Below are positions 48,165 through 64,000 of a DNA stretch of 64,000 bases, piece after piece. The stretch is from a virus. The position numbers and the translations under genes were made by a program. How positions within the stretch are numbered: position 1 is the stretch's first letter; each line of letters begins with the position of its first letter. Location: positions 1 to 64,000 of the IMG/VR virus record IMGVR_UViG_3300021963_000081. One strand, written 5' to 3'. The notes beneath the pieces are model-generated. The model saw only the letters and a program-made list of their open reading frames with translations. It ran no database searches and was not told where the DNA came from.

Positions 48165-50954
48165 ATGGCAAATACAGTTAATGTAGGCATTACAACAACA
48201 GCCTGTACTTTCAATCAGTGGCGTATCACCGACAATCTCATGGCGAACGACGTCAACGAGATTGCTCGTGGCAATTTCGTGAAGGCGACTGGAAATGTTA
48301 CCATTTCTAATGGATTCCTTCTTCTTGCAAACTCCTCTGGTGGCGTTATTCTAGATGTTCGTGATGATACGAACATCGACGGAACACTTACCGTAAAAGA
48401 TATCGAAGTTGATAACTCAACTGGTCACGTCTATGTTGATGCTGGCGATATCTGGTTCCGTCGTATGGGCTCGGCAGATCGTTTCTGGAGCAACACGAAC
48501 ACAACATTCTTCTGTTCTAATGTTTCTGTAACAAACGCAGAAGTCGGAACTTTGAATGTAAACAATCAGATGGTGACGGTAAATACCTCCATCTTTAATG
48601 TTGCAAATACTAATCTTGCAGCAACGATGAACGTCCACCCAGCCAATGTTTGGGTATTTGGCGCAAACTTAACTATTCAGAATACTTCTTCTGGATCTTT
48701 AAATGTCTTTAATAGACTATTGCACGTTAACTCTGGTAATTCGTTCTTCGGAAATACTTCTGCGCTTGCAACATTCAATGTCCATCCAGCAAATGTCAAT
48801 TTCTTCGGCACGAATGTAACCGTATCGAATACAACTGCTGGATCACTAAACGTTGATAATCGTCTTGTGATGGTTACAACGCCAAATATTTTCTTCTCAA
48901 ATACTCACTCATCAGCCAGATTTAATGTAAATCCAAATACTTACTTCCATGGCGGTGAGGTAAATGTTGCAAATACTGCGCTTACTTCTACTGTAAACGT
49001 CCATACTGGTAATGTATTCTTCTTCAGCGGAAATGTTACAGTATCAAATACAACTGGTGGCTCTCTAAATGTCGACAATAGACTTGTTATGGTGACAACA
49101 CCTAACATCTATTTCTCGAATACACATTCTTCTGCTCGCTTCAATGTAAATCCAAACACCTTCTTTACTGGTGGCGAAGTCAACGTATCAAATACGGCAT
49201 TGACTTCTACAATGAACGTTCACCCTGCAAATGTTTGGTTCTTTGGTGCAAATGTAACAGTATCAAACACCAGCGATGGTTCATTTAATGTTGATAATCG
49301 TTTGGTCAGAGTAACATCACCAAATGTGATCTATGCAAACACTCATGCTTCCGCAAGATTCAATGTATTCCCAAATACATTCTTCCATGGTGGATTAGTA
49401 AACGTTGCAAACACTTCACAATTTGCTACCGTTAACATTACACCAAACACTTGGATTTTTGCAAACCTAAACGTTGGATCAAACCTTGAAGTCACTGCAA
49501 ACACTTTCTTGTATTCGAACCTAGCGGTATCTAAGAATACACTAATTTCTCAAAATGCAAACGTCGTTGGAACATTCAATGTAACTTCTACTGCTGAAGT
49601 AACTGGAAACACTTCGCTCTATTCAAACCTCGCTGTATCTAAGAATACAACGATGTCGCAAAACGCGAATGTATCTGGTACGATGAATGTTGGTTCAATA
49701 CTAGCAGTCACTGGCAACACTGAACTTCTATCCAACCTTGCGGTTTCTAAGAATACGACGTTGAGCCAAAACGCTAATGTCCTAGGAACTCTCAATGTAA
49801 CATCTTTCCTCGATGTTGGTGCAAATACAGCGATTGCTGGCAATTTAGCGGTATCACGGAACACCTCTACTGGTAACTTGAGTGTTACACAAAATGTCGC
49901 TGCTGGAAATATTGCTGCAGCAAATGCTGTTTTTACAAATAATCTAGCAGCAGGAAATCTTTCTGTTTCTGGTCTATCTAACTCTACTTGCGCAAACATT
50001 ACTACGCTTTGGGTTCAAGACCTAACAGTACAGAATGCCATTGCTGCTCCTGCAACAACGACAGGTTCTGAATATAGATTGCGCGTTAGCCAAGGTTCAC
50101 GCCAAGATGGTTTCTTTGGCGTTGGACTTGGAACTACTGCAAATGGTAATGCATGGTTAAGATTTGATACTTCAGCTGGCAATGTTTGGCGTGCAACGGC
50201 AAATAGCACTGAAGGAACTTACTATACGATTATTACGCGCCAAAATGTATCTGATGATGTTGCAACAACTGATTCATCAAATGTTGCATCACTCACTGCA
50301 GTTAGAATCGCGAATGCAAATGCTCTTGCTGCGTTGGCTGCGGCAAACTCAGGAGCCAATTCTGTTTGGGTCTATGCTTACGGTGGTTCTGTTCTTTCGA
50401 ACGCAAATCTAAACTTCATCAATACTGCTTCTGTGAATGCATTTGCTGCTGCAAATGGTTCAACTCAAGCCAACGTATCGTTTGCAATGAACACTGCAAA
50501 CATTGTGGCAATTGGTACTGGCGCAGCTGCTCTTACGATTTCGCCAAACACTACGATTTCTCAAAATCTAACTGTAAGCGGTAATCTAACTGTCACAGGA
50601 AATATTACTGGTACATTGAAGTCGACAAAAGACTCGCTCACAACTGCTACGGTTTCAGGTGCGACGACTGTTAACTTGAATAACGGTAACTGGTTTAGAT
50701 ATACATTGACAGGAACTCCAACGTTTACATTCGCGAATGCTCCAGCCTCTGGAAATGCAATGACAGTAACGTTGTTAGTATTGCAAAACGGAACAGGAGG
50801 ATATACGCCAGCTTGGGGTAATACAATCTACTGGGCAGGTGGTCAAGTGCCTCCTGCATCTACTGGAGCGAATAAACTTGATATGTGGACATTCACAACA
50901 ACAGATGGTGGAAGTACGTTTATCGGAACATTGGCTGTTAAAGACGCGAGATAA
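48165..50954 (+). CDS. Tail-fibre-like protein with beta-repeats and C-terminal fibre-tip domain
   Basis: TFNQWR N-terminus; ~65-aa and ~40-aa Asn/Val/Thr repeats; C-terminal VNLNNGNWF..TLTG..TFTF.N.P...W...I.WAGG..P...DMWTF.T.DGG. Confidence 0.75.
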   Translation: MANTVNVGITTTACTFNQWRITDNLMANDVNEIARGNFVKATGNVTISNGFLLLANSSGGVILDVRDDTNIDGTLTVKDIEVDNSTGHVYVDAGDIWFRRMGSADRFWSNTNTTFFCSNVSVTNAEVGTLNVNNQMVTVNTSIFNVANTNLAATMNVHPANVWVFGANLTIQNTSSGSLNVFNRLLHVNSGNSFFGNTSALATFNVHPANVNFFGTNVTVSNTTAGSLNVDNRLVMVTTPNIFFSNTHSSARFNVNPNTYFHGGEVNVANTALTSTVNVHTGNVFFFSGNVTVSNTTGGSLNVDNRLVMVTTPNIYFSNTHSSARFNVNPNTFFTGGEVNVSNTALTSTMNVHPANVWFFGANVTVSNTSDGSFNVDNRLVRVTSPNVIYANTHASARFNVFPNTFFHGGLVNVANTSQFATVNITPNTWIFANLNVGSNLEVTANTFLYSNLAVSKNTLISQNANVVGTFNVTSTAEVTGNTSLYSNLAVSKNTTMSQNANVSGTMNVGSILAVTGNTELLSNLAVSKNTTLSQNANVLGTLNVTSFLDVGANTAIAGNLAVSRNTSTGNLSVTQNVAAGNIAAANAVFTNNLAAGNLSVSGLSNSTCANITTLWVQDLTVQNAIAAPATTTGSEYRLRVSQGSRQDGFFGVGLGTTANGNAWLRFDTSAGNVWRATANSTEGTYYTIITRQNVSDDVATTDSSNVASLTAVRIANANALAALAAANSGANSVWVYAYGGSVLSNANLNFINTASVNAFAAANGSTQANVSFAMNTANIVAIGTGAAALTISPNTTISQNLTVSGNLTVTGNITGTLKSTKDSLTTATVSGATTVNLNNGNWFRYTLTGTPTFTFANAPASGNAMTVTLLVLQNGTGGYTPAWGNTIYWAGGQVPPASTGANKLDMWTFTTTDGGSTFIGTLAVKDAR

Positions 50955-50959
50955 TCGCC

Positions 50960-53041
50960 ATGCCAAGACCGTTTGAATTAAATAAAACGTGGATAGTTGG
51001 ACCATCTAGAGGCACAACCTCATTCAATGCACCAAGCAGCATCACCATTGATTATGGTCGTCATGTTGCTTCAGTCTCAGGTCGCGGTGGGTCAGGAAAT
51101 GCGCCTGCAGCTGCCACTTGGGTGACGAATTATAATACCAATTATAACGTTGCATATCCAATTGCAAATCAACCAGCTGTTGCTTGGACCATCAATTATA
51201 GTAGCAATTATAATGTTGCGTATCCGATTGCGACTCAGCCAGAAGCAGCACGTCCAGGTACAGCATGGACAATTAACTATAATGCTGCTGTGTATCCAAT
51301 CGCTAATCAACCAGAAGCAGCTCGACCAGCAGCTGCTTGGACGATTAACTACACTTCAAATTATAATATTGCTTATCCAGAAGCAGGTCGCCCTGTCACT
51401 GCATGGGTAATTAATTATAATTCAAATTACAACGTTGCTTATCCAGAAGCAGCAAGACCTGTTACTGCTTGGACGATCAATTACAACACTAACTACAATG
51501 TTGCTTATCCGATTGCGGCGCAACCAGAAGTTGCTAGACCATCAACTGCTTGGACCATCAATTATAATGTTGCATATCCAGAAGCCGCTAGACCAGTAAC
51601 TGCTTGGACAATCAATTACAATGCTGCTGTGTATCCGATTGCAAATAGACCAGAGGCTGCTCGACCAGCAACAGCATGGACAATTAACTATAACGTAGCA
51701 TACCCAGAGGCAGGTCGACCACCAACAGCTTGGGTTATTAATTATAACACAAATTACAACGTTGCATATCCAGAAGCTGCTCGTCCTGTAAGTGCATGGA
51801 CGATCAATTATAACACCAACTATAATGTCGCATATCCGATTGCGAACCAACCTGTTGCTGGTGTTGATTGGTTTAGAACATGGTCGGTTAATGGGTTTCC
51901 ATATGTATTTTCTGTAGAACCAATTGAAGTTGGGAATTCGCAAAATGCACTCACTCCACTTCCTGCATATGGAAGTAGCCCTAATCTTCCAGGAAGCCCA
52001 GAAACCATCGGAAACTTTAATTTTATGCCTGATGGTCAATTTGGTGAGTTGAGTGCTCAATATTCTTTACTTGGCACAAATTACAATACCAACTATAACG
52101 TAGCATATCCAGTGGCTACCAGACCAGAAGCTGCTCGACCAGCAACTGCTTGGACGATTAACTATAATACTGCTGTGTATCCGATTGCAACTAGACCAGA
52201 AGCCAACCGCCCAGTTACTGCATGGACGATCACTTATAACACAGTAAGACCAGAAGCAACTCGTCCTGCAACTGCTTGGACTATCAATTACAATACCAAC
52301 TATAATGTTGCCTATCCAGAAGCAACTAGACCAGCGACTGCTTGGACTATTAACTATAACGTAGTATATCCAGAAGCAACTCGACCAGCGACTGCTTGGA
52401 CAATTAACTACAATACCAATTACAACGTCGCATACCCAATCGCAACACAACCAGAAGCTGCGCGTCCAGCCACTGCTTGGACTATCAACTACAATACAGT
52501 ATATCCAATCGCAACACAACCAGAGGCGGCTCGTCCAGGAACTGCGTGGACAATTACTTACAATGCTGCTGTATATCCAATTGCCAATCAACCAGAAGCA
52601 ACAAGACCAGTGACTGCCTGGACGATCAATTATAACACGAATTATAATGTGGCATACCCAGAAGCTGCTCGCCCAGCGACTGCTTGGACCATTAATTACA
52701 ATACAAACTATAATGTTGCATATCCGATCGCCAATCAACCAGAAGCGGCTCGACCAGCGACAGTATACAACACCAATTATAATATCGCATATCCAATTGC
52801 CAGTCAGCCGATCGCCAATCAACCGATCACATCTTATGCACCAGGAAATGTGGGAACACCAACTAATGTTCTTGGCGTTTACTTCCCAGGTGGTCCAATA
52901 GATCTTTCAGGATTTGGTGGTCCTTCAGGAACTGCTCCTTATGTTCCGTCAACTGAAGTAGTCTACTGGAGTTTCCCAGACTTCCAAAATCATCCAGTTA
53001 GTGTTCCTCCAGGTGGGTCAATCGACGTTAACATTGAATAA
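50960..53041 (+). CDS. Self-complementary repeat protein A (base - 11 repeats - knob - 11 repeats - base)
   Basis: 693-aa ORF made of TINY/NTNY/NVAY and PIANQ/PEAAR/PATAW units; unique centre at about 51863-52072. Confidence 0.9.
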   Translation: MPRPFELNKTWIVGPSRGTTSFNAPSSITIDYGRHVASVSGRGGSGNAPAAATWVTNYNTNYNVAYPIANQPAVAWTINYSSNYNVAYPIATQPEAARPGTAWTINYNAAVYPIANQPEAARPAAAWTINYTSNYNIAYPEAGRPVTAWVINYNSNYNVAYPEAARPVTAWTINYNTNYNVAYPIAAQPEVARPSTAWTINYNVAYPEAARPVTAWTINYNAAVYPIANRPEAARPATAWTINYNVAYPEAGRPPTAWVINYNTNYNVAYPEAARPVSAWTINYNTNYNVAYPIANQPVAGVDWFRTWSVNGFPYVFSVEPIEVGNSQNALTPLPAYGSSPNLPGSPETIGNFNFMPDGQFGELSAQYSLLGTNYNTNYNVAYPVATRPEAARPATAWTINYNTAVYPIATRPEANRPVTAWTITYNTVRPEATRPATAWTINYNTNYNVAYPEATRPATAWTINYNVVYPEATRPATAWTINYNTNYNVAYPIATQPEAARPATAWTINYNTVYPIATQPEAARPGTAWTITYNAAVYPIANQPEATRPVTAWTINYNTNYNVAYPEAARPATAWTINYNTNYNVAYPIANQPEAARPATVYNTNYNIAYPIASQPIANQPITSYAPGNVGTPTNVLGVYFPGGPIDLSGFGGPSGTAPYVPSTEVVYWSFPDFQNHPVSVPPGGSIDVNIE

Positions 53042-55062
53042 TAGAAACGAATAAATAAGTACAATGCCTTTGGGTATTGGTGCCCATTTCTGGAAAAATA
53101 ATGCCAAAAAGTTCCGATTTAAGTAAAAGCTGGCTGGGCGGAAGTTCTCGTGGAACACAAACGTTTAATGCGCCTTCGTCTCTAACGATTCCATACGGTC
53201 GTTACATTGGTAACGTCACAGGTCGTGGTGGATCTGGCAATGCACCAACAGCTTCTGCGTGGACGATCAACTATAATACAAATTATAACGTAGCATATCC
53301 GATTGCGAATCAACCAGAGGCAGCGAGACCACCAACTGCTTGGACGATTAATTATAATACTAACTATAATGTTGCATACCCAGAAGCTGCACGTCCAGTA
53401 ACTGCTTGGACGATCAATTACAATACGAATTACAACGTCGCTTATCCATTAGCGAATCAGCCAGAAGCCGCTAGACCAGCGACTGCTTGGACAATTAATT
53501 ATAATACTAACTATAACGTTGCTTACCCAATCGCCAATAGACCAGAAGCGGCTAGACCAGCAACAACATGGTCAGTGAACTACAACGTTGCTTATCCGAT
53601 TGCGACACAACCAGAAGCGACTCGACCTGTAACCGCATATACTTCTAACTACAACGTTGCATATCCAATTGCTAACCAGCCAGCAAATGCTTGGACGATT
53701 AATTATAATACTAACTACAACGTTGCATATCCAATTGCTAACCAGCCAGCAAATGCTTGGACGATTAATTATAATACTAACTACAACGTTGCATATCCAA
53801 TAGCAAATAGACCAGAAGCTGCACGACCAGCAACAGCGTGGGTGATCAATTACAACACAAACTACAACGTTGCATATCCAATTGCGAATAGACCAGAAGC
53901 CGCAAGACCAGTGACTGCTTGGTCAACTAACTACAACGTCGCATATCCAGTTGCGAATCAGCCAGAAGCCGCAAGACCTGTGACTGCATATTCAACGAAT
54001 TATAATGTCGCGTATCCAGTGGCTAATCAGCCGATTGCCAATCAGCCAGTTGCCAACTATAATCCACCGAACGCTTATTTCTCCAATTACGTGGTGAACG
54101 CTACCGTATACGGTCCGTACGGTTACAACACGTTTTATGATTATGGATACTATGGTCCTGGATGTCCATCAGCGACATACGAAACGTATTATGATCCTTA
54201 TTTTAATTATTATATAACAGTATACACAACTTTTCCATGCACTGGTTCAGGAAATAGCGCAAATTATAACACAAACTATAACACCAACTACAACGTTGCA
54301 TACCCGATTGCCAATCAACCAGCCAATGCATGGGTGATCAATTACAATACTAATTACAACGTTGCATATCCAATCTCGACGCAGCCAGCCAATGCTTGGG
54401 TAATTAATTATAACACCAACTATAACGTTGCGTATCCGATTGCCAATCAGCCAGAAGCAGCAAGACCTGTTACTGCATGGGTAATTAATTACAATACCAA
54501 TTATAATGTCGCGTACCCAATTGCGACCCAACCAGAAGCTGCTCGTCCCGTTACAGCATGGTCAACAAATTATAACGTTGCGTACCCAATCGCCAATAGA
54601 CCAGAAGCAGCTCGACCAGTCACTGCTTGGTCAACTAACTACAACGTTGCTTATCCGCTCGCAAATCAACCAGCGACTGCATGGACTATCAACTATAATA
54701 CAAATTATAACGTAGCATACCCAGAAGCAAATCGTCCTGTTAATGCTTGGACAATTAACTACAATACCAATTACAACGTCGCTTATCCATTAGCGAATCA
54801 GCCAGAAGCCGCTAGACCTGCTACCGCATGGACCATCAATTATAATTCAAACTATAACGTGGCGTACCCAATCGCAACACAACCAGAAGCAGCAAGACCT
54901 GCTACCACTTGGACTATCAACTACAATACAGTATATCCAATCGCCACGCAGCCAGAAGCTGCCAGACCACCAACTGCTTGGACCATCAATTATAACACCA
55001 ATTACAACGTTGCTTACCCAATTGCCAATCAACCAGAAGCAGCAAGACCAGTGACAACATAT
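51122..55062 (+). repeat. 44 degenerate coding repeats (18-27 aa) in four arms
   Basis: Arms at about 51122-51862, 52073-52837, 53263-54060 and 54259-55062; heavy synonymous divergence. Confidence 0.9.
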
Positions 55063-55266
55063 TCTCCAGGAAACACTGGATCGCCAACCAATGTTCTTGG
55101 TGTCACTTTCCCAGGTGGACCAATTGATCTCTCAGGCTTTGCTGGTCCTCCAGGAACTGCTCCTACTGTTGGTCCAACACAAGTAAGTTATTACAGTTAT
55201 CCTGACGGCGCAAATTATCCTGTTTCTGTTCCTCCAGGTGGACAAATAGTTGTAACACTCGCATAA
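53101..55266 (+). CDS. Self-complementary repeat protein B, paralogue of A
   Basis: ATG 53101 aligns with the start of A (MPKSS/MPRPF); same units; Tyr-rich centre with two Cys at about 54061-54258. Confidence 0.9.
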   Translation: MPKSSDLSKSWLGGSSRGTQTFNAPSSLTIPYGRYIGNVTGRGGSGNAPTASAWTINYNTNYNVAYPIANQPEAARPPTAWTINYNTNYNVAYPEAARPVTAWTINYNTNYNVAYPLANQPEAARPATAWTINYNTNYNVAYPIANRPEAARPATTWSVNYNVAYPIATQPEATRPVTAYTSNYNVAYPIANQPANAWTINYNTNYNVAYPIANQPANAWTINYNTNYNVAYPIANRPEAARPATAWVINYNTNYNVAYPIANRPEAARPVTAWSTNYNVAYPVANQPEAARPVTAYSTNYNVAYPVANQPIANQPVANYNPPNAYFSNYVVNATVYGPYGYNTFYDYGYYGPGCPSATYETYYDPYFNYYITVYTTFPCTGSGNSANYNTNYNTNYNVAYPIANQPANAWVINYNTNYNVAYPISTQPANAWVINYNTNYNVAYPIANQPEAARPVTAWVINYNTNYNVAYPIATQPEAARPVTAWSTNYNVAYPIANRPEAARPVTAWSTNYNVAYPLANQPATAWTINYNTNYNVAYPEANRPVNAWTINYNTNYNVAYPLANQPEAARPATAWTINYNSNYNVAYPIATQPEAARPATTWTINYNTVYPIATQPEAARPPTAWTINYNTNYNVAYPIANQPEAARPVTTYSPGNTGSPTNVLGVTFPGGPIDLSGFAGPPGTAPTVGPTQVSYYSYPDGANYPVSVPPGGQIVVTLA

Positions 55267-55316
55267 ATAGTTTATAATATAATTTTGTTTTCGCAATAAC
55301 ATTTGAGGTGGTCATT

Positions 55317-55919
55317 ATGCCGTATCCTATTCCTCAGTATAACAAAATGCTGAATGAGTTCTGTGTTGCCAATGGAGCATTCACAGAAGAAGAAGTTGAT
55401 AAAATTGTTGATTTAGAAGATTTGCAAAAGTTTCAGCGCGGAGGAATTGGCGGAACTGGCGGTCCTGGGTCGGTCGACAAAAAAGTCCGCGACAGTGATG
55501 TGCAGTGGATAATGCACGACCAACATTCAGATTGGTTATTCCAAAAATTTGCTTATCTGACCTCAATGGTCAATTACGATCACTTCATGTATAATATTGA
55601 CGGTTTTGATAATTTTCAATACACTGTTTATCGCGCAAAAACAAAACAACATTATGATTGGCATATGGATGCTGGTGGACCATGGACACCGTATGTCAGA
55701 AAACTCAGTGCAGTAATTATTCTTTCAGATCCAGATGATTATGAAGGTGGAGAATTCCAGTGTGTTCTTAATGGTCAAGTAGAAAATCTAATGACAGTTA
55801 AGCCACCTCGTGGTGACGCAATCTTTTTCCCAGCTTGGATGCCCCATAGAGTAACACCAGTAACAAAAGGTGTTCGCAAATCATTGGTCTCTTGGGTGAT
55901 GGGTAAAAGAGAAAAATAA
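55317..55919 (+). CDS. 2OG-Fe(II) oxygenase (prolyl-hydroxylase-like)
   Basis: QYTVY, HYDWHMD, RKLSAVIILSDPDDYEGGEF, FFPAWMPHRVTPVTKGVRKSLVSW. Confidence 0.9.
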   Translation: MPYPIPQYNKMLNEFCVANGAFTEEEVDKIVDLEDLQKFQRGGIGGTGGPGSVDKKVRDSDVQWIMHDQHSDWLFQKFAYLTSMVNYDHFMYNIDGFDNFQYTVYRAKTKQHYDWHMDAGGPWTPYVRKLSAVIILSDPDDYEGGEFQCVLNGQVENLMTVKPPRGDAIFFPAWMPHRVTPVTKGVRKSLVSWVMGKREK

Positions 55920-55931
55920 TTGGTTATTAAT

Positions 55932-56675
55932 ATGAATTTTAAAAAATTGGTGAAGTTCTGGGGTAATGATATCATTGAGTTTTATACAACACCAGATTTA
56001 ATTGAGGTCATTCCTGAACCGAGATCAGCAGTCAAAAATCTTCCAGAATGGTTTAAAGATTTAAGTCCTGCTTATGGGGCTGCAGATAATCAAAGAGATC
56101 AATTTGGCAATAAAAATATGACGGCAAAAAAGTGTTTGCCAATGCTAGATGCAATGTCTCTTGGATACACAATTCCCCTTGCAGCAGACCTTCATATCAT
56201 GAGCAACCACGATAATACTCAAATACATGTAACCAATCCTCCAGGATTAAAAGTTTGCGAGTTTCATGATGCAATGCAACTTGGTGGAAATAATAAACTC
56301 GGATTTAAACATGGAAACGCATTAAAATTTATAAATTATTGGCATATAAAGACAGCACCAGGTTGGTCTATTCTATTCACACCTCCATTCAATCATTTTG
56401 CACAACCATTTACTTGTTTAAGTGGATTTGTTGACACTGACGTTTATAGCAACGTTGTGAATTTTCCTGCTGTATTGAACATCTATGATGCAGATATACA
56501 TATACCTGCAGGCACTCCTATGGTCACAGCAATACCTGTAAAAAGAAATTCTTTTCCGAAAAAACCGCCTATTCGTAAGATGACGAAAAAAGAAGCCATG
56601 GAATTGCAAAAATTGCGAAGACGACAAGATACTAGAACTCATCACTATACCTATGAGTTGAGAAAGAGGGATTAA
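55932..56675 (+). CDS. Conserved phage protein of unknown function (possibly dUTPase-like beta fold)
   Basis: LPEWFK, TAKKCLPMLDAMSLGYTIP, WHIKTAPGWSILF, GFVDTD, IPAGTPMV.AIP. Confidence 0.7.
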   Translation: MNFKKLVKFWGNDIIEFYTTPDLIEVIPEPRSAVKNLPEWFKDLSPAYGAADNQRDQFGNKNMTAKKCLPMLDAMSLGYTIPLAADLHIMSNHDNTQIHVTNPPGLKVCEFHDAMQLGGNNKLGFKHGNALKFINYWHIKTAPGWSILFTPPFNHFAQPFTCLSGFVDTDVYSNVVNFPAVLNIYDADIHIPAGTPMVTAIPVKRNSFPKKPPIRKMTKKEAMELQKLRRRQDTRTHHYTYELRKRD

Positions 56676-56677
56676 TC

Positions 56678-57418
56678 ATGTTTAATTGGTTTAAGAAAGA
56701 TGATATTGATTTTAAATTTCTTGATGTTGCAGAAGGAATTGTATATCCACATTATCCACCAGTATTAGCAAAAGATATCAAGCCTCTTAAAGAATTTCAA
56801 GAAAACAAATATGGAGAATATAAATTTCCTGGTTGTCCAGGAATGCATGATTATGCTCGTTTAGGTTATATTATTCCTGCATGGAGCAATATTCATATCA
56901 AAGCAAACAAAGCTGGATTTATGGGAGTTGTAGGTTCTGTTGGTGAAGACAATCAAAAAAGGGGCACACAACTAAAACAACCCCAAAATATGGATACTGC
57001 TATTACAGATGGTCTTTTTGAAATCAATGGTGGAGTTAAATATAGTGTCTTAAATTTTCCTGGTCCATGGAAAATTAATTCTAATAAAAACGTCTCTTGT
57101 TTGTTGCTCCCTGCATACTTCCATAGCAATTTTCTAGACGATTTATATGTGTATCCAGGAATAGTAGACTATAAAGGATTTGGTACAGTAAATTTCATTT
57201 GCGCCCCAAAACGTCCATGTGAAATAGAAATTAAGGCTGGTGACCCTCTTTTGCATGTCATTCCATTTATAACAAATAAAGACATTGTTGCTTCTTATGG
57301 TCCTGCGACAAGAGAAGAAAATGATTACAATAAGATATTAAAGTGGTTTCATGAAAAGAATTTCTACAGAAAGTATTACATGATCCGTAAAAAATTTAAA
57401 CTGGTAAAAGATGTATGA
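56678..57418 (+). CDS. Paralogue of 55932-56675
   Basis: CPGMHDYARLGYIIPAW, PWKI, PGIVD, IKAGDPLLHVIP. Confidence 0.7.
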   Translation: MFNWFKKDDIDFKFLDVAEGIVYPHYPPVLAKDIKPLKEFQENKYGEYKFPGCPGMHDYARLGYIIPAWSNIHIKANKAGFMGVVGSVGEDNQKRGTQLKQPQNMDTAITDGLFEINGGVKYSVLNFPGPWKINSNKNVSCLLLPAYFHSNFLDDLYVYPGIVDYKGFGTVNFICAPKRPCEIEIKAGDPLLHVIPFITNKDIVASYGPATREENDYNKILKWFHEKNFYRKYYMIRKKFKLVKDV

Positions 57419-58368
57419 AAAAGATATTTGTAAACGTTTGCTCATATAGAGATAAACTTCTATTGCCTACAATCGAAAGTCTGATTGAAAATGAGTCAGG
57501 CAGAAATGAGATTGTCTATGGTGTTTTTGAGCAAACATCTCTTGCAGATAGTTTACAAACCAAAGCACCAGATCTGGTAAAAAAGACAAACATTCGATAT
57601 AAAAGAATTGATCCAGAATTTTCTGATGGTGTTGTTTGGGCGCGTTCTATTAATTCAATGCAGATCTATGAAGAAGAGTTTCAGTATCAAATCGACTCTC
57701 ACATGCTCTTTGATAAGGGGTGGGATCATTATCTAATTCTAGATTATTTGCATGCGTGTAAAGTTGCAGGACATGATCGAGTTCTTCTAACATGTGGAAC
57801 TAAAAACTTTGATCTTGATGGTGATCGAATTACCAAGCATACATTGACCGATGACATCTCAGTGAATCTTGGATATTATCAGTTTGATAAAAACATGAGA
57901 CTACACGCTCATGGTCCATGGGTTCCTGCTCGAGATGTAGTAAGTCCCTCTCGCCATATCTGCGCTGGTAACTTCTTTGCTCCAGCAAAATGGGTGAAGG
58001 AAGTTGGGTATAATACAAATATCTTCTTCGAAGGCGAAGAACAGATGTTTGCTCTTACTTCCTTCCTCAAGGGGTATAGCATTTATCATATGAGACGCGC
58101 GAAGGTTTATCATTATCTTCGTTCTGCGAATCACGAGACTAAACAGACCGTCAATCCAGTGGTCGATGCAAGACGATTGGATATGAATAAGAAACGATCT
58201 GAGAAAGAACTCAGTAACTTTATCTATTCTGTCGACGAAGCCAAGCTGGAAGAGTTTCGAAAACACACGGGAGTCGATTATATAAATAGGAAATTAGAGG
58301 AACGCGCAATTTCTCGCCATATTAAACCAGACGTAGAGATCGATTGGGAAATCCCGAATAAAGAGTAA
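57415..58368 (+). CDS. GT60-like (Skp1-hydroxyproline-type) GlcNAc transferase
   Basis: KIFVNVCSYRD, GVFEQ, GVVWAR, YQIDSHMLFDKGWD, AGNFF, FFEGEEQ, YHYL. Confidence 0.8.
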   Translation: MKKIFVNVCSYRDKLLLPTIESLIENESGRNEIVYGVFEQTSLADSLQTKAPDLVKKTNIRYKRIDPEFSDGVVWARSINSMQIYEEEFQYQIDSHMLFDKGWDHYLILDYLHACKVAGHDRVLLTCGTKNFDLDGDRITKHTLTDDISVNLGYYQFDKNMRLHAHGPWVPARDVVSPSRHICAGNFFAPAKWVKEVGYNTNIFFEGEEQMFALTSFLKGYSIYHMRRAKVYHYLRSANHETKQTVNPVVDARRLDMNKKRSEKELSNFIYSVDEAKLEEFRKHTGVDYINRKLEERAISRHIKPDVEIDWEIPNKE

Positions 58369-58997: not shown

Positions 58998-59333
58998 ATG
59001 GCTCAATTTATAGAATTAGACCTGGATCAAGGAACTGATTTCAATTTTGATTTAGACTTGACTCAAGATGACGGATCAGTCATAAACGTGACGAATTACA
59101 CGTTTTCTTCGTCCATACGAAAATCCTTTTATTCATCTGGCGTCACAGCAAATCTAACTGTGACGATACTCGACGCTGCAAATGGGAACGTTTTTCTAAA
59201 CCTCAATGCGGCAACAACCTCGAATATTAAAGCAGGTCGTTATTTGTTTGATGTCAAACAAATCGATAATGCTAATGTCACAACAAGACTTGTTGAGGGC
59301 ATCATCACAGTTAATCCGCAGGTAACTAAATGA
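58998..59333 (+). CDS. Small Ig-like/BppU-N-like structural adaptor
   Basis: [30 protein letters not shown]; precedes the fibre gene. Confidence 0.75.
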
Positions 59334-62300
59334 CAACAGTTAGAGTTTCGACAGGTCGTGGTTCTCAAGGATTAAGAGGTCCACAGGGTCCACAGGGTCC
59401 ACAAGGACCAACTGGTGCACAAGGTATACAGGGTCAGGCTGGTGGTCCACAAGGTCCTCAGGGCGCTGCTGGTGCAGCAGGTCCTCAGGGTCCTCAGGGT
59501 CCGCAGGGCGCAGCAGGTCCACAAGGACCACAAGGTGCTGGTCCTCAAGGTCCACAAGGACCACAAGGTTCTACTGGTCCTCAAGGACCACAAGGACCAC
59601 AAGGTGCTGGTCCTCAAGGTCCACAAGGACCACAAGGTTCTACTGGTCCTCAAGGACCACAAGGACCACAAGGTGCTGGTCCTCAAGGACCACAAGGACC
59701 ACAAGGACCACAAGGACCACAAGGTGCTGGTCCTCAAGGTCCACAAGGACCACAAGGACCACAAGGACCACAAGGTGCTGGTCCTCAAGGTCCACAGGGT
59801 CCATCTGGTCCACAAGGTCCACAAGGACCAAGTGGTCCAAATGCTGATGCTGCATATGATCAGGCTAATGCTGCTTATAGTCAGGCTAACTCAGCATATA
59901 ATGCTGCGAATAATGCTCAGACATCTGCTAATACAGCAAATACGAATGCATTGAATGCGTATGGTTCAGCTAACTCTTCAGCCAATACAGTAAGAGTTTC
60001 GCAAAATGGATCATCAACTCTAAGTAGTAAGCAATTAAACTTTATTAATACTTCAACGATTACTGTTACAGTAGCCTCTGCTGGTGATGGAACGAATGCG
60101 AATATTTCCTTCACAGCAGTTGGTGGTGCTGCTTATGATCAAGCAAATCTTGCATACACAGCTGCTAACTCTGCTCAGACTGCAGCCAATACTGCTAATA
60201 CTAATGCATTGAATGCTTATGGACAGGCTAATCTATCTTATACAGCTGCTAACTCTGCTCAGACTGCAGCCAATACTGCTAATACGAATGCACTGAATGC
60301 ATACAGTTCAGCCAACCTTGCTTATACGGCTGCTAACTCAGCACAAACTGCAGCAAATACAGCTAATACCAATGCTCTAAACGCTTATGGTGCTGCGAAT
60401 ACTGCTAATACCAATGCACTAAATGCTTATGGGAAAGCAAATAACTCGGCTAATACTGTTTGGGTTTATGCTAATGGATCTTCTATCCTTTCTAACGGCA
60501 ATCTGAATTTTAATAATACTGCAACCATTAATGTTTCTGCATCAGCAAATGGTTCTGGACAATCTAATGTAGAATTTTCTGTTAATGCTAATTCATTTAC
60601 CTTAATTGGGCGTCCAACTTCTGCATTAACTCTTGCATCTAATGTAACTGTTTCGCAAGATATGACAGTTACTGGGAATCTTTTTGTTCAGGGTGATAGC
60701 GTAACATTTAATGTCTCAACACTCAAAGTTGAAGACAATGAAATTATTTTAAACTCTAGTAACACTGGAATTGCTCCTGCTGTTGATGCATTAATTACTG
60801 TAGAAAGAGGAACTTCAACTGATACATATTTAAAATGGAACGAGACAACGGATAAATGGACTTGGAGTGACGATGGAACAACAGCTTATAACTTCAGCAC
60901 CTCACTGAGTGCATATGCTCAAGCGAATTCTGCTTACGGACAAGCAAATCTAGCATACACAGCAGCTAACACTGCTCAAACTTCTTCTAATACAGTTTAT
61001 GCTCAAGCAAATCTAGCATATACCGCCGCAAATTCTGCTCAGACTGCAGCGAATACAGCAAATACGAATGCATTGAATGCATATGGTGCTGCAAACTCTG
61101 CTGCGAATACTGTAAGAGTTTCTTCAAATGGAGGCTCGACGCTTTCTGGCAAGCAACTAAACTTTATCAACACATCAACTATTACTGTTACAGTGGCTTC
61201 TGCTGGTGATGGAACTAATGCAAATATTTCGTTTACAGCAGTAGGTGGTGCTGCTTACGATCAGGCTAATGCTGCTTATGGTCAGGCTAATTTAGCCTAC
61301 ACTCAAGCAAACACTGCTCGATCCGATGCTAATACAACATTCGCTACCATCAACACAACCTTTGGTACGACAAATACAACCTTTGGTACTATTAACACTA
61401 ATTACCAAGCAGCATATTCTCAAGCAAATCTAGCGGCTAACACTGTTGCTGTTTATGCCAATGGTACATTGACTTATGCTAACTCTAACGTAAACTTTAA
61501 CAACACTGCAACAGTCAACGTTTCCACATCAGCAAATACAACTAATAAGTTTACTAACGTTGCATTCAGTGTAAATGTTTCTTCCAGTGACTGGGCAAGT
61601 TCTGCTAATGGTGTTGCGCAATCGGCTTATGCTAAAGCAAATTCTGCTGCAAATAATGTTGCAATTTTTGCTAATGGTACAGTTGTTCTATCAAATGCTA
61701 ATGTAAACTTTAACAATACTGCAACTATTAACGTTGCTGCAACTGCTAATGGTACTGGACAAGTTAACGTAGCATTTTCGATGAACACTTCTTCAATTAG
61801 CGCAGGTCCTTCTGGTCCATCTGGTCCATCTGGTCCACAAGGACCAACTGGCGACACTGGACCTCAAGGTCCACAAGGTCCTCAAGGTGTTGCTGGACCA
61901 CAAGGATCTACTGGTCCTCAAGGACCACAAGGTCCACAAGGTCCGCAAGGTATTGTTGGTCCTCAAGGTCCTCAAGGTCCACAAGGTGCTGGTCCACAAG
62001 GACCACAAGGTCCGCAAGGTATTGTTGGTCCTCAAGGTCCTCAAGGTCCACAAGGTGCTGGTCCACAAGGACCACAAGGTCCGCAAGGTGTCACTGGTGC
62101 ACAAGGTCCACAAGGACCACAAGGACCATCTGGTGCACAAGGTGATGCATCAAATGTTGCAGGTCCACAAGGACCACAAGGACCACAAGGACCGCAGGGA
62201 AATTCAGTTACTGGTCCACAAGGTCCACAGGGACCACAAGGTCCACTTGGCAGTTTAGGTCCTCAAGGTCCTCAGGGTTCAATTGGTCCACAGGGTCCGA

Positions 62301-64000
62301 AGGGTGATACAGGTGATACTGGTCCTCAAGGTCCTCAAGGTTCTCAGGGGGCAACTGGTTCAGCTGGTCCTCAAGGTCCACAAGGCGTTACTGGTCCACA
62401 AGGTCCGCAGGGTGCGATTGGTCCGCAAGGTCCAAAGGGTGATAAAGGCGATAATGGTCCGCAGGGTCCACAGGGTGCTCTTGGTCCACAGGGTCCACAG
62501 GGTCCTCAAGGACCACAAGGACCACAAGGTCCTCAAGGTCCACAAGGCGTAATTGGTCCGCAAGGACCATCTGGTCCATCTGGCGCGCAAGGTTCTGGCA
62601 TCACAGTTCTTGGTACAGTTGCTACAGTTGGAAATCTTCCTGGTGGTGCAAGTGATGGTGATGCTTATATTGTAACAGCTGACGGTCACTTATATGTTTG
62701 GAATGGTTCAAGTTGGATCGATGCTGGTCTGATTGTTGGTCCTCAAGGTCCACAAGGCACTCAAGGCAATACTGGTCCACAGGGTCCAACTGGTCCACAC
62801 GGTCCTCAAGGTTCAACTGGTCCAACTGGTCCACAAGGTAATGCTGGACCACAAGGACCACAAGGACCACAAGGTCCACAAGGTGTCACAGGTCCACAGG
62901 GTCCACAGGGTCCGCAAGGTGTAACTGGTCCTCAAGGTCCACAGGGTCCTCAAGGTGTGACTGGTCCACAAGGTCCTCAAGGTCCACAAGGTATCACTGG
63001 TCCTCAAGGTCCGCAAGGTCCGCAAGGTCCTCAAGGTCCACAAGGTCCACAAGGTCCTCAAGGCGATACTGGTCCACAAGGACCGCAAGGACCACAAGGA
63101 CCACAAGGTGTCGTCGGTCCACAAGGACCACAAGGTGTCACAGGTCCTCAAGGACCACAAGGTCCGCAAGGTGTCGTCGGTCCACAGGGTCCACAAGGTT
63201 CAACTGGCGACACTGGACCACAAGGTCCACAAGGACCTTCTGGCGTGTCAAATGTTCCTGGTCCACAGGGTCCACAGGGTCCACAAGGTCCACAAGGTCC
63301 ACAAGGTCCACAGGGTGTAACTGGTCCTCAAGGACCACAAGGACCGCAAGGTGATCGAGGACCACAAGGTCCGCAAGGCAATACAGGTCCACAAGGTCCA
63401 AAGGGTGATACAGGCGATACTGGTCCTCAGGGTCCACAAGGCGCAACTGGTCCTCAAGGACCACAAGGCGTGGTTGGTAACACTGGTCCACAAGGACCGC
63501 AAGGTCCTCAAGGAAACTCAGTGACTGGTCCTCAAGGTCCTCAAGGTCCACAAGGACCGCAAGGTCCTCAAGGAAACTCAGTGACTGGTCCTCAAGGTCC
63601 TCAAGGTCCACAAGGACCGCAAGGTCCTCAAGGACCACAAGGACCACAAGGTGTGACTGGACCGCAAGGACCACAAGGTCCACAAGGTGTGACTGGTCCA
63701 CAAGGACCACAAGGCTCAACAGGTTCTACTGGCGAAGTCGGTCCTCAAGGTCCACAGGGTCCACAAGGACCGCAAGGTGCAACAGGTCCACAGGGTCCTC
63801 AAGGTCCGCAGGGTGTTACTGGTCCACAGGGTCCAACTGGTCCTGTTGCTGGATCTGATACGCAAGTCATATTTAATGATGGCGGTAGTGTAGGCGCAAG
63901 TTCTAATTTGACGTTTGCGAAATCAACAAGCACGTTGAAATCAAATACGATACTTGCTGCAAATAATGTTGCGTATGCAAATACCACTGGAACTGTGAAG
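59330..64000 (+). CDS. Collagen-like fibre protein, >=1557 aa, runs off the window (not in ORF track)
   Basis: ATGA overlap with upstream stop; frame spot-checked at 59822, 61802, 62582 and the window end; (GPQ)n tracts, AYxQAN coiled-coil repeats, [17 protein letters not shown] knob. Confidence 0.88.
59375..63843 (+). repeat. Three Gly-Pro-Gln collagen tracts (about 59375-59838, 61805-62595, 62738-63843)
   Basis: 9-nt GGW CCN CAR tandem units. Confidence 0.92.

What the first reader, a model, noticed from the sequence alone, without database searches (positions are those of the whole stretch)
51122..55062. A four-letter pairing code between peptide units, with compensatory covariation
With NVAY-type and PxTAW-type units as self-opposed nodes, the remaining units follow one rule across the hairpin: x[I/V]xY faces PE-x-x-R, and x[T/S]NY faces P[I/L/V]-x-x-[Q/R]. 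Hand check: 33 pairs in A and 37 in B, no violation. Rare cases obey it: SVNY/PEANR, TSNY/PLANQ, STNY/PISTQ, NTNY-NTNY/PVANQ-PIANQ, VTNY-NTNY/PIASQ-PIANQ. The only two PEAGR units in A face the only two TITY units. Inference: side-chain complementarity acting like base pairs, with 4-mer against 5-mer imposing a regular bulge or twist; potentially a programmable peptide-pairing system.
Basis: partly seen in the sequence, partly recalled or inferred. Interest (0 to 1): 0.92.

Follow-up and report, generated by a model that had tools for sequence, protein, structure and literature searches.

The report
Phage fibre proteins with self-pairing arms
Two neighbouring phage proteins appear to fold back on themselves so that short tyrosine-ending units in one half lie opposite matching proline-starting units in the other half, a protein analogue of a base-paired hairpin that also holds in their relatives.

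Summary
Genes A (50960-53041) and B (53101-55266) each encode a base segment, repeat arm 1, a unique tip, repeat arm 2 and a second base segment. Read backwards with the swaps x[IV]xY<->PExxR and x[TS]NY<->P[ILV]xx[QR], arm 2 equals arm 1: 54 of 54 units in A and 58 of 58 in B. Shuffling the order of periods reached this in 0 and 6 of 200,000 trials.

The rule holds in 21 distinct proteins from the window and 16 IMG/VR loci although their unit patterns differ: 1,056 of 1,099 aligned unit pairs conform. It also holds in most of 10 further parsed database proteins.

Residues co-vary across the arms (4-mer position 3 with 5-mer position 4, z 14), and the couplings run antiparallel. Each arm 1 fits its own arm 2, not the paralogue's.

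The N and C ends fold confidently as one domain. The tip is swapped between relatives. The genes lie in the baseplate and fibre module of an uncultured T4-like phage.

Best reading: an out-and-back fibre stalk with compensated, heterotypic repeats. No structure supports the pairing yet. The "programmable" claim is untested. No known family matches. Other first-stage notes of this scan describe the same stretch, and one describes a look-alike on other DNA.

The parts
50960..51121 (+). Protein A, N-terminal half of the split base domain (aa 1-54)
   Evidence: ORF; coordinates. The homologous segment of L012 was modelled at high confidence together with the C-terminal segment. Invariant K9, W11, R17, Y32, G33, G41, G46, N47 in the alignments.
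51122..51850 (+). Protein A, repeat arm 1 (aa 55-297; 54 units in 11 periods)
   Evidence: Unit table; coordinates. Tandem repeat periods of 54 and 66 nt in this stretch correspond to 18- and 22-residue periods.
51851..52072 (+). Protein A, unique tip domain (aa 298-371)
   Evidence: Not repetitive. Identity to L001 A falls to 23% here while the ends are 100%. The tip is 59 of 76 residues identical to the tip of P0013, whose arms use other units.
52073..52837 (+). Protein A, repeat arm 2 (aa 372-626; 56 units), unit-wise complement of arm 1 read backwards
   Evidence: 54 of 54 units; 0 of 200,000 period shuffles matched as many periods.
52838..53041 (+). Protein A, C-terminal half of the split base domain (aa 627-693) and stop codon
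   Evidence: Conserved LGV.FPGG and VP.GG motifs in the alignments. The homologous segment of L012 had block-mean pLDDT of 85-96.
53101..53262 (+). Protein B, N-terminal half of the split base domain. The likely start is the ATG at 53101, not the TTG at 53077 listed by the ORF finder.
   Evidence: From the ATG, the N terminus (MPKSSDLSKSW) aligns with that of A and of all homologues. AlphaFold2 block-mean pLDDT of 71-86 for residues 11-50.
53263..54060 (+). Protein B, repeat arm 1 (59 units in 11 periods)
   Evidence: Tandem repeat periods of 66, 69 and 81 nt correspond to 22-, 23- and 27-residue periods.
54061..54267 (+). Protein B, Tyr-rich tip domain with two Cys (aa 363 and 388 of the 729-aa frame)
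   Evidence: It is the most divergent part against L001 B (66-76% against 90-100% elsewhere).
54268..55062 (+). Protein B, repeat arm 2 (59 units), unit-wise complement of arm 1 read backwards
   Evidence: 58 of 58 units; 6 of 200,000 period shuffles matched as many periods.
55063..55266 (+). Protein B, C-terminal half of the split base domain and stop codon
   Evidence: AlphaFold2 block-mean pLDDT of 63-87 for residues 651-721.

Best explanation
A and B are paralogous fibre-type proteins of an uncultured T4-like myophage. They are probably receptor-binding or other surface fibres.

Topology. Each chain starts in a small beta-sandwich base and runs outward through repeat arm 1. It forms a unique, exchangeable tip domain, returns through repeat arm 2 and ends in the same base. 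The base is therefore built from the N- and C-terminal segments together. The two arms lie antiparallel and in register, as a long stalk.

Grammar. Along the stalk each arm alternates between two kinds of stretch. One is W-(x[IV]xY)-(x[TS]NY)-(NVAY). Trp, Ile, Tyr, Thr, Tyr, Val and Tyr occupy every second position, and mostly Asn the positions between, which is an amphipathic strand pattern. The other is a Pro-punctuated stretch, (P[ILV]xx[QR])-(PExxR)-(PxxxW). At every level a Tyr-ending 4-mer of one arm lies against a Pro-starting 5-mer of the other.

Rung types. There are two. In I.R the 4-mer carries Ile or Val at position 2 and the 5-mer carries Glu there. In T.Q the 4-mer carries Thr or Ser and the 5-mer carries Ile, Leu or Val. 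Each rung thus has a large aliphatic residue (Ile, Leu or Val) at position 2 on exactly one side. NVAY-type and PxxxW-type units face their own kind.

Evolution. Because the arms must stay in register, a unit gained, lost or switched in one arm is matched by the partner unit in the other arm. The number of periods (about 1.5 to 14 in relatives) sets the stalk length. The irregular order of rung types may fix the register.

Shown: the grammar, its significance, its conservation with compensation, the residue couplings, the split base model, the tip exchange and the gene context. Inferred: physical contact of the arms, the strand and Pro-segment conformations, the fibre function, the register role, and any oligomeric state (unknown).
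For: 1. Mirror complementarity is exact in A (54 of 54 units) and B (58 of 58). Period shuffles matched as many periods in 0 and 6 of 200,000 trials. Parallel and no-swap readings score lower: 11 to 21 of 54 units in A and 19 to 47 of 58 in B.

2. The rule generalises.
- One search found 16 IMG/VR loci. They and the window hold 22 distinct proteins of 282 to 871 residues as open frames.
- In the 21 that were parsed, 1,056 of 1,099 aligned unit pairs conform. These are TQ 210, QT 193, IR 128, RI 121, VV 206 and WW 198.
- Unusual orders are mirrored as well. T-I faces R-Q in the A-type proteins of L003, L004 and L005. R-R faces I-I in L002 A.
- In 10 of 13 non-redundant proteins, 0 of 1,000 period shuffles reached the observed alignment score.

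3. A second set from other databases was parsed: P0001 26 of 27 units, P0002 21 of 22, P0004 20 of 21, P0025 15 of 16, P0026 16 of 20, P0029 10 of 11, P0031 8 of 9.

4. Compensation between close relatives. L003 A and L004 A differ by 3 class switches in 31 rungs, and all 3 occur on both arms. One example is STNY facing PIANR against SINY facing PEANR. Over all pairwise comparisons, which are not independent, 665 of 716 switches are on both arms.

5. Residue couplings after within-protein shuffles.
- I position 3 with R position 4: 1.12 bits, z 14.3, 0 of 1,000 shuffles.
- I position 3 with R position 3: z 7.9.
- T position 2 with Q position 2: z 11.9, 0 of 1,000.
- Raw counts: I position 3 = N goes with AA, AN, AT or QA at R positions 3-4 (162 of 179); T goes with xG (29 of 32); L goes with AS (31 of 36).

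6. Over 100 half-periods the couplings fall roughly on an anti-diagonal: 2-16, 6-16/17, 8-12/13, 10-12 and 11-6. That is the pattern of antiparallel neighbours.

7. Each arm 1 fits its own arm 2 best in 12 of 13 proteins. Window A against B scores 0.46, against 0.93 and 0.95 for self.

8. Base domain. In the AlphaFold2 model of the 279-aa relative L012, the block-mean pLDDT is 85-94 for residues 21-50 and 85-96 for residues 221-279. Structural alignments span both ends of the model, with 80 to 100 aligned residues.

9. Tip exchange.

10. Context. The genes lie among baseplate wedge and tail fibre genes. Gene order is conserved in 16 of 16 loci.

11. It is not a nucleic-acid palindrome. Only imperfect inverted repeats of 24 nt or less were found, and they are not arranged arm to arm.
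Against: - No structural support for arm contact. AlphaFold2 left the arms below pLDDT 50 in B (mean 45.2) and in L012.
- Exceptions exist.
  - There are 5 clean class clashes: TINY or SVNY facing a Q-type unit four times, and NTNY facing PEGNR once.
  - P0003 has about 3 periods in arm 1 against 8 in arm 2 (9 of 38 units).
  - P0030 seems by eye to have one extra outer period (sequence).
  - The distant relative P0047 has arms that are direct, not mirrored, repeats (79 of 99 identical).
- How 4 residues span the same distance as 5 is unexplained.
- All sequences are metagenome assemblies of a repetitive gene. Short-read contigs break up inside the arms.
- Counts over homologues include close relatives and are not independent events.
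- The fibre function rests on gene neighbourhood and tip exchange only. PHROGs, Pfam, the PDB and 50,697 phage records give no match.
Confidence: 0.75

Rival explanations
1. The same pairing occurs between chains rather than within one chain. Arm 1 of one copy lies against arm 2 of another copy, as a domain-swapped or antiparallel homo-oligomer.
For: Covariation cannot tell contacts within a chain from contacts between identical chains. Phage fibres are usually oligomers (general knowledge, recalled). Self-specificity fits both readings.
Against: The N- and C-terminal segments of one chain are modelled confidently as one compact domain, which favours closure within the chain. A monomer model cannot exclude a swap.
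Confidence: 0.12
2. The two arms do not touch. Both lie on a third periodic partner, for example another fibre or the collagen-like protein encoded nearby, and that partner imposes the same register on both.
For: Large fibrous proteins are encoded next to A and B: 48165-50954 and a collagen-repeat protein from 59330.
Against: The complement rule is heterotypic and specific at residue level: N goes with A, T with G, L with S. This is simplest with direct contact. Patterns differ freely between relatives while the neighbouring genes stay conserved. A fixed third partner would not allow that.
Confidence: 0.05
3. The mirror pattern comes from how the DNA evolves or was assembled (nested duplication, gene conversion, assembly artefact). 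It carries no structural meaning.
For: The genes are highly repetitive and come from metagenome assemblies that fragment here. One homologue, P0003, looks like a mosaic.
Against: The paired unit classes differ in sequence and in length (4 against 5 residues). Duplication or conversion therefore cannot create the partner. There is no arm-to-arm DNA inverted repeat. Misassembly would break the mirror rather than create it, yet the mirror is seen in independent assemblies from several collections.
Confidence: 0.02
4. It is chance, or a trivial consequence of the repeat grammar W-[I]-[T]-V-[Q]-[R].
For: The swap I<->R, T<->Q maps the period grammar onto itself when reversed, so some matches are expected. 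Shuffled periods still match 2.3 (A) and 4.1 (B) of 11 periods on average.
Against: 0 and 6 of 200,000 shuffles matched as many periods as observed. In 10 of 13 relatives, 0 of 1,000 shuffles reached the observed score. Only L013, whose periods are nearly all alike, is uninformative (166 of 1,000).
Confidence: 0.01

Closest known systems
Receptor-binding tip of the phage T4 long tail fibre protein gp37 (needle and head domains)
   Same: Out-and-back architecture. A passage in PMC9659904, citing Bartual et al. [quoted passage not shown] Passages in PMC6957217 describe seven iron atoms along the needle, bound by histidines. Here too a distal, exchangeable domain sits at the turn of two antiparallel arms, in a T4-like phage fibre module.
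   Different: There is no sequence similarity to any solved chain. Neither A nor B has an HxH motif. The stalk is several times longer and is built from modular repeats of two unlike classes. The trimeric state is not shown here.
Antiparallel coiled-coil arms that fold back on themselves (SMC and Rad50 type).
   Same: Two distant segments of one chain pair antiparallel over a long distance and carry a functional domain at the turn. The lengths of the two arms must match.
   Different: Those arms are alpha-helical, and both strands use the same heptad unit. Here the partners are unlike units of 4 and 5 residues, rich in Tyr, Asn and Pro, and not helical by prediction.
Glycine-rich polyproline II helix bundles, such as the gp38 adhesin at the tip of the Salmonella phage S16 long tail fibre
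   Same: A non-alpha, non-classical-beta building principle found in phage fibre tips, with a strong preference for antiparallel neighbours (passages of bioRxiv 10.1101/2023.11.25.568672). Distant relatives of A and B have arms of xPGN 10-mers and xGGN 11-mers that resemble such sequences.
   Different: Gly is not among the ten commonest residues of the window's arms, so it makes up at most 3.8% in A and 3.2% in B. The bundles are compact domains, not long two-arm stalks. No pairing of unlike unit classes is described in the passages read.
Stems of RNA or DNA hairpins with compensatory base changes
   Same: Formal analogy only. One arm equals the reversed other arm under a complement table. 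Changes are compensated, and the loop carries the variable function.
   Different: The pairing is at protein level. The DNA of the two arms is not complementary. The 'letters' are 4- and 5-residue peptides.

Membership tests
T4 gp37-type receptor-binding tip (needle and head) | The chain runs out to a distal head and returns, so that N-side and C-side segments lie antiparallel | tested here: met
   Inferred from sequence, not from a structure. The evidence is the mirrored unit grammar, the antiparallel couplings and the N and C ends modelled as one domain.
T4 gp37-type receptor-binding tip (needle and head) | HxH motifs along the needle that bind iron | tested here: not met
   No HxH motif in A (2 His in all) or in B (0 His).
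T4 gp37-type receptor-binding tip (needle and head) | Sequence similarity to the solved gp37 tip | tested here: not met
   phmmer of A against all PDB chain sequences found 0 matches at E up to 1.
T4 gp37-type receptor-binding tip (needle and head) | Homotrimer | not testable with these tools
Phage tail fibre or receptor-binding protein (functional class) | Encoded in the tail, baseplate or fibre gene module | tested here: met
   PHROGs give baseplate wedge subunits at 31304-33370 and 38211-40226, and a tail fibre C-terminal match in 48165-50954, directly upstream of A. The order is the same in the related loci.
Phage tail fibre or receptor-binding protein (functional class) | The distal domain is exchanged between relatives while the rest is conserved | tested here: met
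   Window A against L001 A is 100% identical at the ends and 23% at the tip. The window A tip is 59 of 76 identical to the tip of P0013, whose arms use other units.
Phage tail fibre or receptor-binding protein (functional class) | Homology to a named tail fibre family | tested here: not met
   0 PHROG families for A and B. No Pfam family with a matched stretch of its own; the only one above the cut-off, Phage-MuB_C on B, is summed over repeats. No tblastn match for B in 50,697 phage records; BLAST's low-complexity filter was on.
Phage tail fibre or receptor-binding protein (functional class) | Present in the virion and needed for adsorption | not testable with these tools
   The phage is uncultured (an IMG/VR record of 86,279 bases, about 50% complete).
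Glycine-rich polyproline II helix bundle | Segments with a third or more glycine | tested here: not met
   Arm composition is led by A, N, T, Y and P. Gly is not among the ten commonest residues, so it is at most 3.8% (A) and 3.2% (B).
Collagen triple helix and other Pfam repeat families | Match to the Pfam model above its cut-off, with at least one matched stretch | tested here: not met
   Pfam scan of A and B at E up to 0.1 lists only Phage-MuB_C, DUF7372 and BAHCC1-like Tudor. All have 0 stretches that pass on their own. Phage-MuB_C on B scores 44.3 bits against a cut-off of 25, summed over repeats.
Phage 'glycine-rich domain' proteins (for the split base domain) | Structural or sequence match of the base domain | tested here: inconclusive
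   BFVD gave only local matches of 31 to 50 columns at E 0.6 to 2.4. A Pfam scan of the four base segments alone found 0 families at E up to 10. The best PDB matches have Z 4 to 5.2, to generic beta-sandwiches.

The most novel reading that the evidence does not exclude
These proteins define a new fibrous fold held together by a natural, evolvable peptide-pairing code.

Tyr-ending 4-mers on one strand pair specifically with Pro-starting 5-mers on the antiparallel strand. There are two mutually exclusive rung types, xIxY with PExxR and xTNY with P[ILV]xxQ. Finer sub-rules sit within them: Asn with Ala, Thr with Gly, Leu with Ser, and Ser with Leu.

The irregular order of rungs acts as a barcode. 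It sets the register and keeps paralogues A and B from mispairing. Nature has already written dozens of different 'sequences' in this code, so it could be transplanted to designed protein rods of chosen length.
Probability: 0.35. Interest if true: 0.92.

Novelty: new variant of a known kind. Interest (0 to 1): 0.8.

Why it matters
If the arms pair as inferred, this is a long protein stalk whose two strands recognise each other through unlike, modular peptide units, with compensation that can be read directly from sequence. That is something normally seen in RNA stems.

It would give structural biology a new fibrous architecture. It would give phage biology a new class of length-adjustable stalks carrying exchangeable tip domains. 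Short-read contigs of estuary, marine, freshwater and lake metagenomes from 19 DNA studies hold 34 to 94% of the sampled words of this stretch. It would also give protein design a ready-made set of orthogonal rungs with natural examples of what is tolerated.

Even without a structure, the family is a clean test case for contact prediction in repeat proteins. Ordinary alignments fail there, and a unit-aware reading succeeds.

Tried and rejected
AlphaFold2.
- Window B with a 20-sequence alignment gave mean pLDDT 45.2, with the arms below 50.
- The 279-aa relative L012 with 34 sequences gave a good base domain, but arms and tip below 50.
- Neither model tells how the arms sit.

Fold searches with the L012 model.
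- BFVD gave nothing at E 0.001 or better.
- VIA-align against 48,161 PDB chains gave a best Z of 5.2, generic beta-sandwiches.

Atlas and literature.
- ESM Atlas: no usable hit and no model.
- Three literal full-text searches found no description of these repeats or of such a stalk. The repeat motif gave 0 papers, a tail-fibre 'folds back' query gave 0 papers, and a polyproline/tyrosine/tail-fibre query gave 6 papers, none about this. These searches cannot show that nothing is in print.

Second repeat dialect.
- A crude automatic split of P0001 to P0024 into arms, to correlate arm lengths, misplaced the tips (for example 14 against 233 residues in P0022) and gave r = -0.25. I discard it as unreliable.
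- A wider tokeniser for that dialect (PxxY-NxxY 8-mers) gave strings too irregular to score. I read them only by eye, so the rule is tested there only in part.

Rows dropped or failed.
- L006 A (identical in L007 and L010) was dropped because my arm split failed. By eye its sequence obeys the rule once the 5-mers without Pro (VEGNR, GTGNR) are read as units. The exceptions are TVNY and SVNY facing Q-type units.
- P0028, P0030 and P0043 failed to parse.
- P0035 (4 of 14) and P0039 (8 of 13) were parsed badly at their ends.

Other attempts.
- Laying contigs of four runs on the stretch gave only short pieces and many repeat-induced joints. There was nothing usable on natural variants.
- The Phage-MuB_C Pfam rows are repeat artefacts with 0 matched stretches.
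- The long antisense ORFs at 51542-52060 and 52067-52822 are by-products of the repeat composition.

Full report
WHAT IS THERE. The stretch holds two adjacent ORFs on the + strand. A is 50960-53041 (693 aa). B is listed from a TTG at 53077 (729 aa), but it most likely starts at the ATG at 53101 (721 aa), because from there its N terminus aligns with A and with all relatives. Both have the same plan: a conserved N-terminal segment of about 55 aa, a repeat arm of 243 to 266 aa, a unique middle of 69 to 74 aa, a second repeat arm of 255 to 265 aa, and a conserved C-terminal segment of about 67 aa. Tandem Repeats Finder sees periods of 54, 66, 69 and 81 nt, that is 18, 22, 23 and 27 residues. The repeat period is therefore not constant.

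THE OBSERVATION.
- Arm 2 read backwards, with I<->R and T<->Q exchanged, is identical to arm 1 in 54 of 54 units in A and 58 of 58 in B.
- The grammar maps onto itself under this operation, so some agreement is expected. Shuffled period orders still match 2.3 (A) and 4.1 (B) of 11 periods on average.
- The observed number of matching periods was reached in 0 of 200,000 shuffles for A and in 6 of 200,000 for B.
- Parallel or no-swap readings give only 11 to 21 of 54 units in A, and 19 to 47 of 58 in B.
- The DNA of the arms is not complementary. Only imperfect inverted repeats of 24 nt or less were found, and they are not arranged arm to arm.

DOES IT HOLD IN RELATIVES. A scan of IMG/VR found 16 loci. 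Most carry an A-type and a B-type gene side by side.
- Together with the window they give 22 distinct proteins of 282 to 871 residues as open frames. Their unit patterns differ widely, yet in each the two arms mirror each other.
- One protein (L006 A) was dropped because my automatic arm split failed. In the other 21, 1,056 of 1,099 aligned unit pairs conform: TQ 210, QT 193, IR 128, RI 121, VV 206, WW 198.
- Five pairs are clean class clashes: TINY or SVNY facing a Q-type unit four times, and NTNY facing PEGNR once. The remaining non-conforming pairs involve units my tokeniser could not parse, or the ragged ends.
- Unusual orders are mirrored too. T-I in one arm faces R-Q in the other (A-type proteins of L003, L004, L005), and R-R faces I-I (L002 A).
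- In 10 of 13 non-redundant proteins, 0 of 1,000 period shuffles reached the observed score. The others gave 3, 2 and 166 of 1,000; the last is L013, whose periods are nearly all alike.
- Each arm 1 fits its own arm 2 best in 12 of 13 proteins. The exception is an orthologue with the same pattern. Window A against window B scores 0.46, against 0.93 and 0.95 for self. The pairing is therefore self-specific and not between A and B.

A SECOND, SEPARATE SET. Two protein searches gave 24 proteins and 88 proteins at E 0.001 or better among 1.84 billion representatives. The family is therefore rare.
- Of 13 proteins from these searches put through the tokeniser, 10 were parsed: P0001 26 of 27 units, P0002 21 of 22, P0004 20 of 21, P0025 15 of 16, P0026 16 of 20, P0029 10 of 11, P0031 8 of 9, P0039 8 of 13, P0035 4 of 14 and P0003 9 of 38. 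Three failed to parse.
- P0003 is a true exception. It has about three periods before the tip and eight after it, and it looks like a mosaic of A-type arms with a B-type tip. Whether it is a real recombinant or a chimeric assembly could not be checked.
- P0030 seems by eye to carry one extra outer period.

COMPENSATION AND RESIDUE COUPLINGS.
- L003 A and L004 A differ by three class switches in 31 comparable rungs, and all three are switched on both arms. In one, STNY facing PIANR becomes SINY facing PEANR. That is one residue changed on each side: Thr to Ile in the 4-mer and Ile to Glu in the 5-mer.
- Over all pairwise comparisons, which are not independent, 665 of 716 switches are on both arms. 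The one-sided ones cluster in L006 B, L008 B and L009 B.
- Within the I.R rungs, position 3 of the 4-mer goes with positions 3-4 of the 5-mer. Asn goes with AA, AN, AT or QA (162 of 179), Thr with xG (29 of 32), and Leu with AS (31 of 36).
- Within the T.Q rungs, TSNY and NSNY go with PLANQ (14 of 18), and TTFY goes with PIAAQ or PIAAR (4 of 4).
- Against shuffles that keep each protein's own units, I position 3 with R position 4 carries 1.12 bits (z 14.3, 0 of 1,000 shuffles). I position 3 with R position 3 has z 7.9. T position 2 with Q position 2 has z 11.9 (0 of 1,000).
- A map over 100 complete half-periods from 13 proteins places the strongest couplings roughly on an anti-diagonal: positions 2-16, 6-16/17, 8-12/13, 10-12 and 11-6. 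That is what antiparallel neighbours give.
- The new protein P0026 follows the sub-rules in its four I.R rungs by eye: SITY-PETGR, PEASR-TILY and PESGR-NITY twice (sequence).

TOPOLOGY AND CONTEXT.
- AlphaFold2 did not resolve the arms. Window B had mean pLDDT 45.2 with the arms below 50.
- In the 279-aa relative L012, block-mean pLDDT is 85-94 for residues 21-50 and 85-96 for residues 221-279. Structural alignments cover both ends together as one beta-sandwich. It resembles only generic jelly-roll, TNF/C1q-like and phage baseplate domains at Z 4 to 5.2.
- The chain ends therefore meet, as an out-and-back topology requires.
- The middle domain is exchanged between relatives. Window A and L001 A are 100% identical at both ends and 23% identical at the tip. 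The window A tip is 59 of 76 identical to that of P0013, a protein whose arms use other units.
- The genes lie behind baseplate wedge genes and a protein with a tail-fibre C terminus.
- The nearest cultured phages by the gp6-like wedge protein are Methylophilales phage Melnitz (34%) and Pelagibacter phage HTVC008M (41%).
- The window is part of an 86,279-base IMG/VR record, about half complete.
- Contigs of estuary, marine, freshwater and lake metagenomes from 19 DNA studies hold 34 to 94% of the sampled words of this stretch.
- A and B match no PHROG, have no Pfam match with a stretch of its own, and match no PDB sequence. B has no tblastn match in the cultured phage records.

HOW IT MOST LIKELY WORKS. 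This part is inference, except where a call is cited.
- Each chain leaves the base, runs out along arm 1, forms the tip and returns along arm 2, antiparallel and in register.
- In the stretch W-I-T-V, every second residue is Trp, Ile, Tyr, Thr, Tyr, Val or Tyr, and the residues between are mostly Asn. This is the pattern of an amphipathic strand. In the low-confidence model of B, strand assignments recur roughly once per period while long stretches are assigned no regular structure.
- At each level one arm supplies a Tyr-ending 4-mer and the other a Pro-starting 5-mer.
- The two rung types differ in which side carries the large aliphatic residue at position 2. It is either Ile or Val in the 4-mer with Glu opposite, or Thr or Ser in the 4-mer with Ile, Leu or Val opposite. 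I read this as constant packing of a narrow core.
- The number of periods, about 1.5 to 14 in relatives, would set the stalk length. I estimate up to about 80 nm for A and B if fully extended.
- The irregular rung order may fix the register.
- The stalk would present a variable tip, as receptor-binding fibres do.

COMPARISON WITH WHAT IS KNOWN.
- The closest architecture is the T4 gp37 tip. A passage of PMC9659904 describes it as a six-stranded antiparallel needle with a head domain at the turn. Passages of PMC6957217 describe iron atoms along the needle, bound by histidines. A and B share the out-and-back plan but have no HxH motif and no sequence similarity to any solved chain. They are not members of that family.
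- Fold-back coiled-coil arms (recalled, not looked up) share the matched-arm logic but use one helical unit on both strands.
- Glycine-rich polyproline II bundles of fibre tips (passages of bioRxiv 10.1101/2023.11.25.568672) share the antiparallel preference but need glycine, which is scarce in these arms.
- Three literal literature searches found no description of these repeats.
- I therefore rate it a new variant of a known kind, an out-and-back phage fibre. The pairing of unlike units is the new element.

VERDICT. The pairing interpretation is well supported by covariation but lacks structural proof. The twist and the programmability claims are open. My confidence in the antiparallel, in-register stalk reading is about 0.75. 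Interest is 0.8.

Noticed in passing
window 55308-58368, and L001-L016 downstream of the hairpin genes: A 2OG-Fe(II) oxygenase (PF13640), two DUF6065-like paralogues and a GlcNAc glycosyltransferase (PF11397) directly follow the hairpin gene or genes in 16 of 16 related loci. This includes the loci with a single short hairpin gene. They might modify the Pro-rich arms, but see the next item.
   Followed up: partly
window 59330-64000 (runs off the window end): A very large ORF with collagen triple-helix repeats (PF01391, E 1.3e-97, 11 stretches). It is an equally good or better candidate substrate for the neighbouring oxygenase and transferase than A and B.
   Followed up: no
window 51851-52072 and 54061-54267; L001; P0013, P0019: The tip domains are exchangeable cassettes. 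The tips of A and B are unrelated to each other. The A tip recurs (59 of 76 and 46 of 71 identical) in proteins whose arms use a different repeat dialect.
   Followed up: yes
P0005-P0024; P0051, P0053, P0063: The same split base and tip plan carries other repeat 'dialects'. One has PxxY-NxxY 8-mers on both arms. Another has xPGN 10-mers on one arm and xGGN 11-mers on the other. In P0063 there are 6 xPGN units at period 10, then 5 xGGN units at period 11. In P0053 the two kinds swap arms. Pairing of unlike units may be general in this superfamily.
   Followed up: partly
P0003 and P0047: Two relatives break the mirror rule. P0003 has about 3 periods in arm 1 against 8 in arm 2. P0047 has arms that are direct repeats of each other (79 of 99 identical). 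Neither is explained. P0003 may be a chimeric assembly.
   Followed up: partly
window 48165-50954: The 929-aa protein just upstream has its own repeats (108-nt period). It has a Bactofilin-like Pfam match just below the cut-off and a tail-fibre-type C terminus (PHROGs). It is probably another fibre of the same module.
   Followed up: no
window 51542-52060 and 52067-52822, minus strand: Long antisense ORFs of 172 and 251 aa lie inside gene A. They are most likely a by-product of the repetitive codon composition and not genes.
   Followed up: no
window 50960-55266 in public runs: Short-read contigs of four metagenome runs break into pieces of a few hundred bases inside the arms and show many repeat-induced joints. 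Assemblies of these genes need care.
   Followed up: partly
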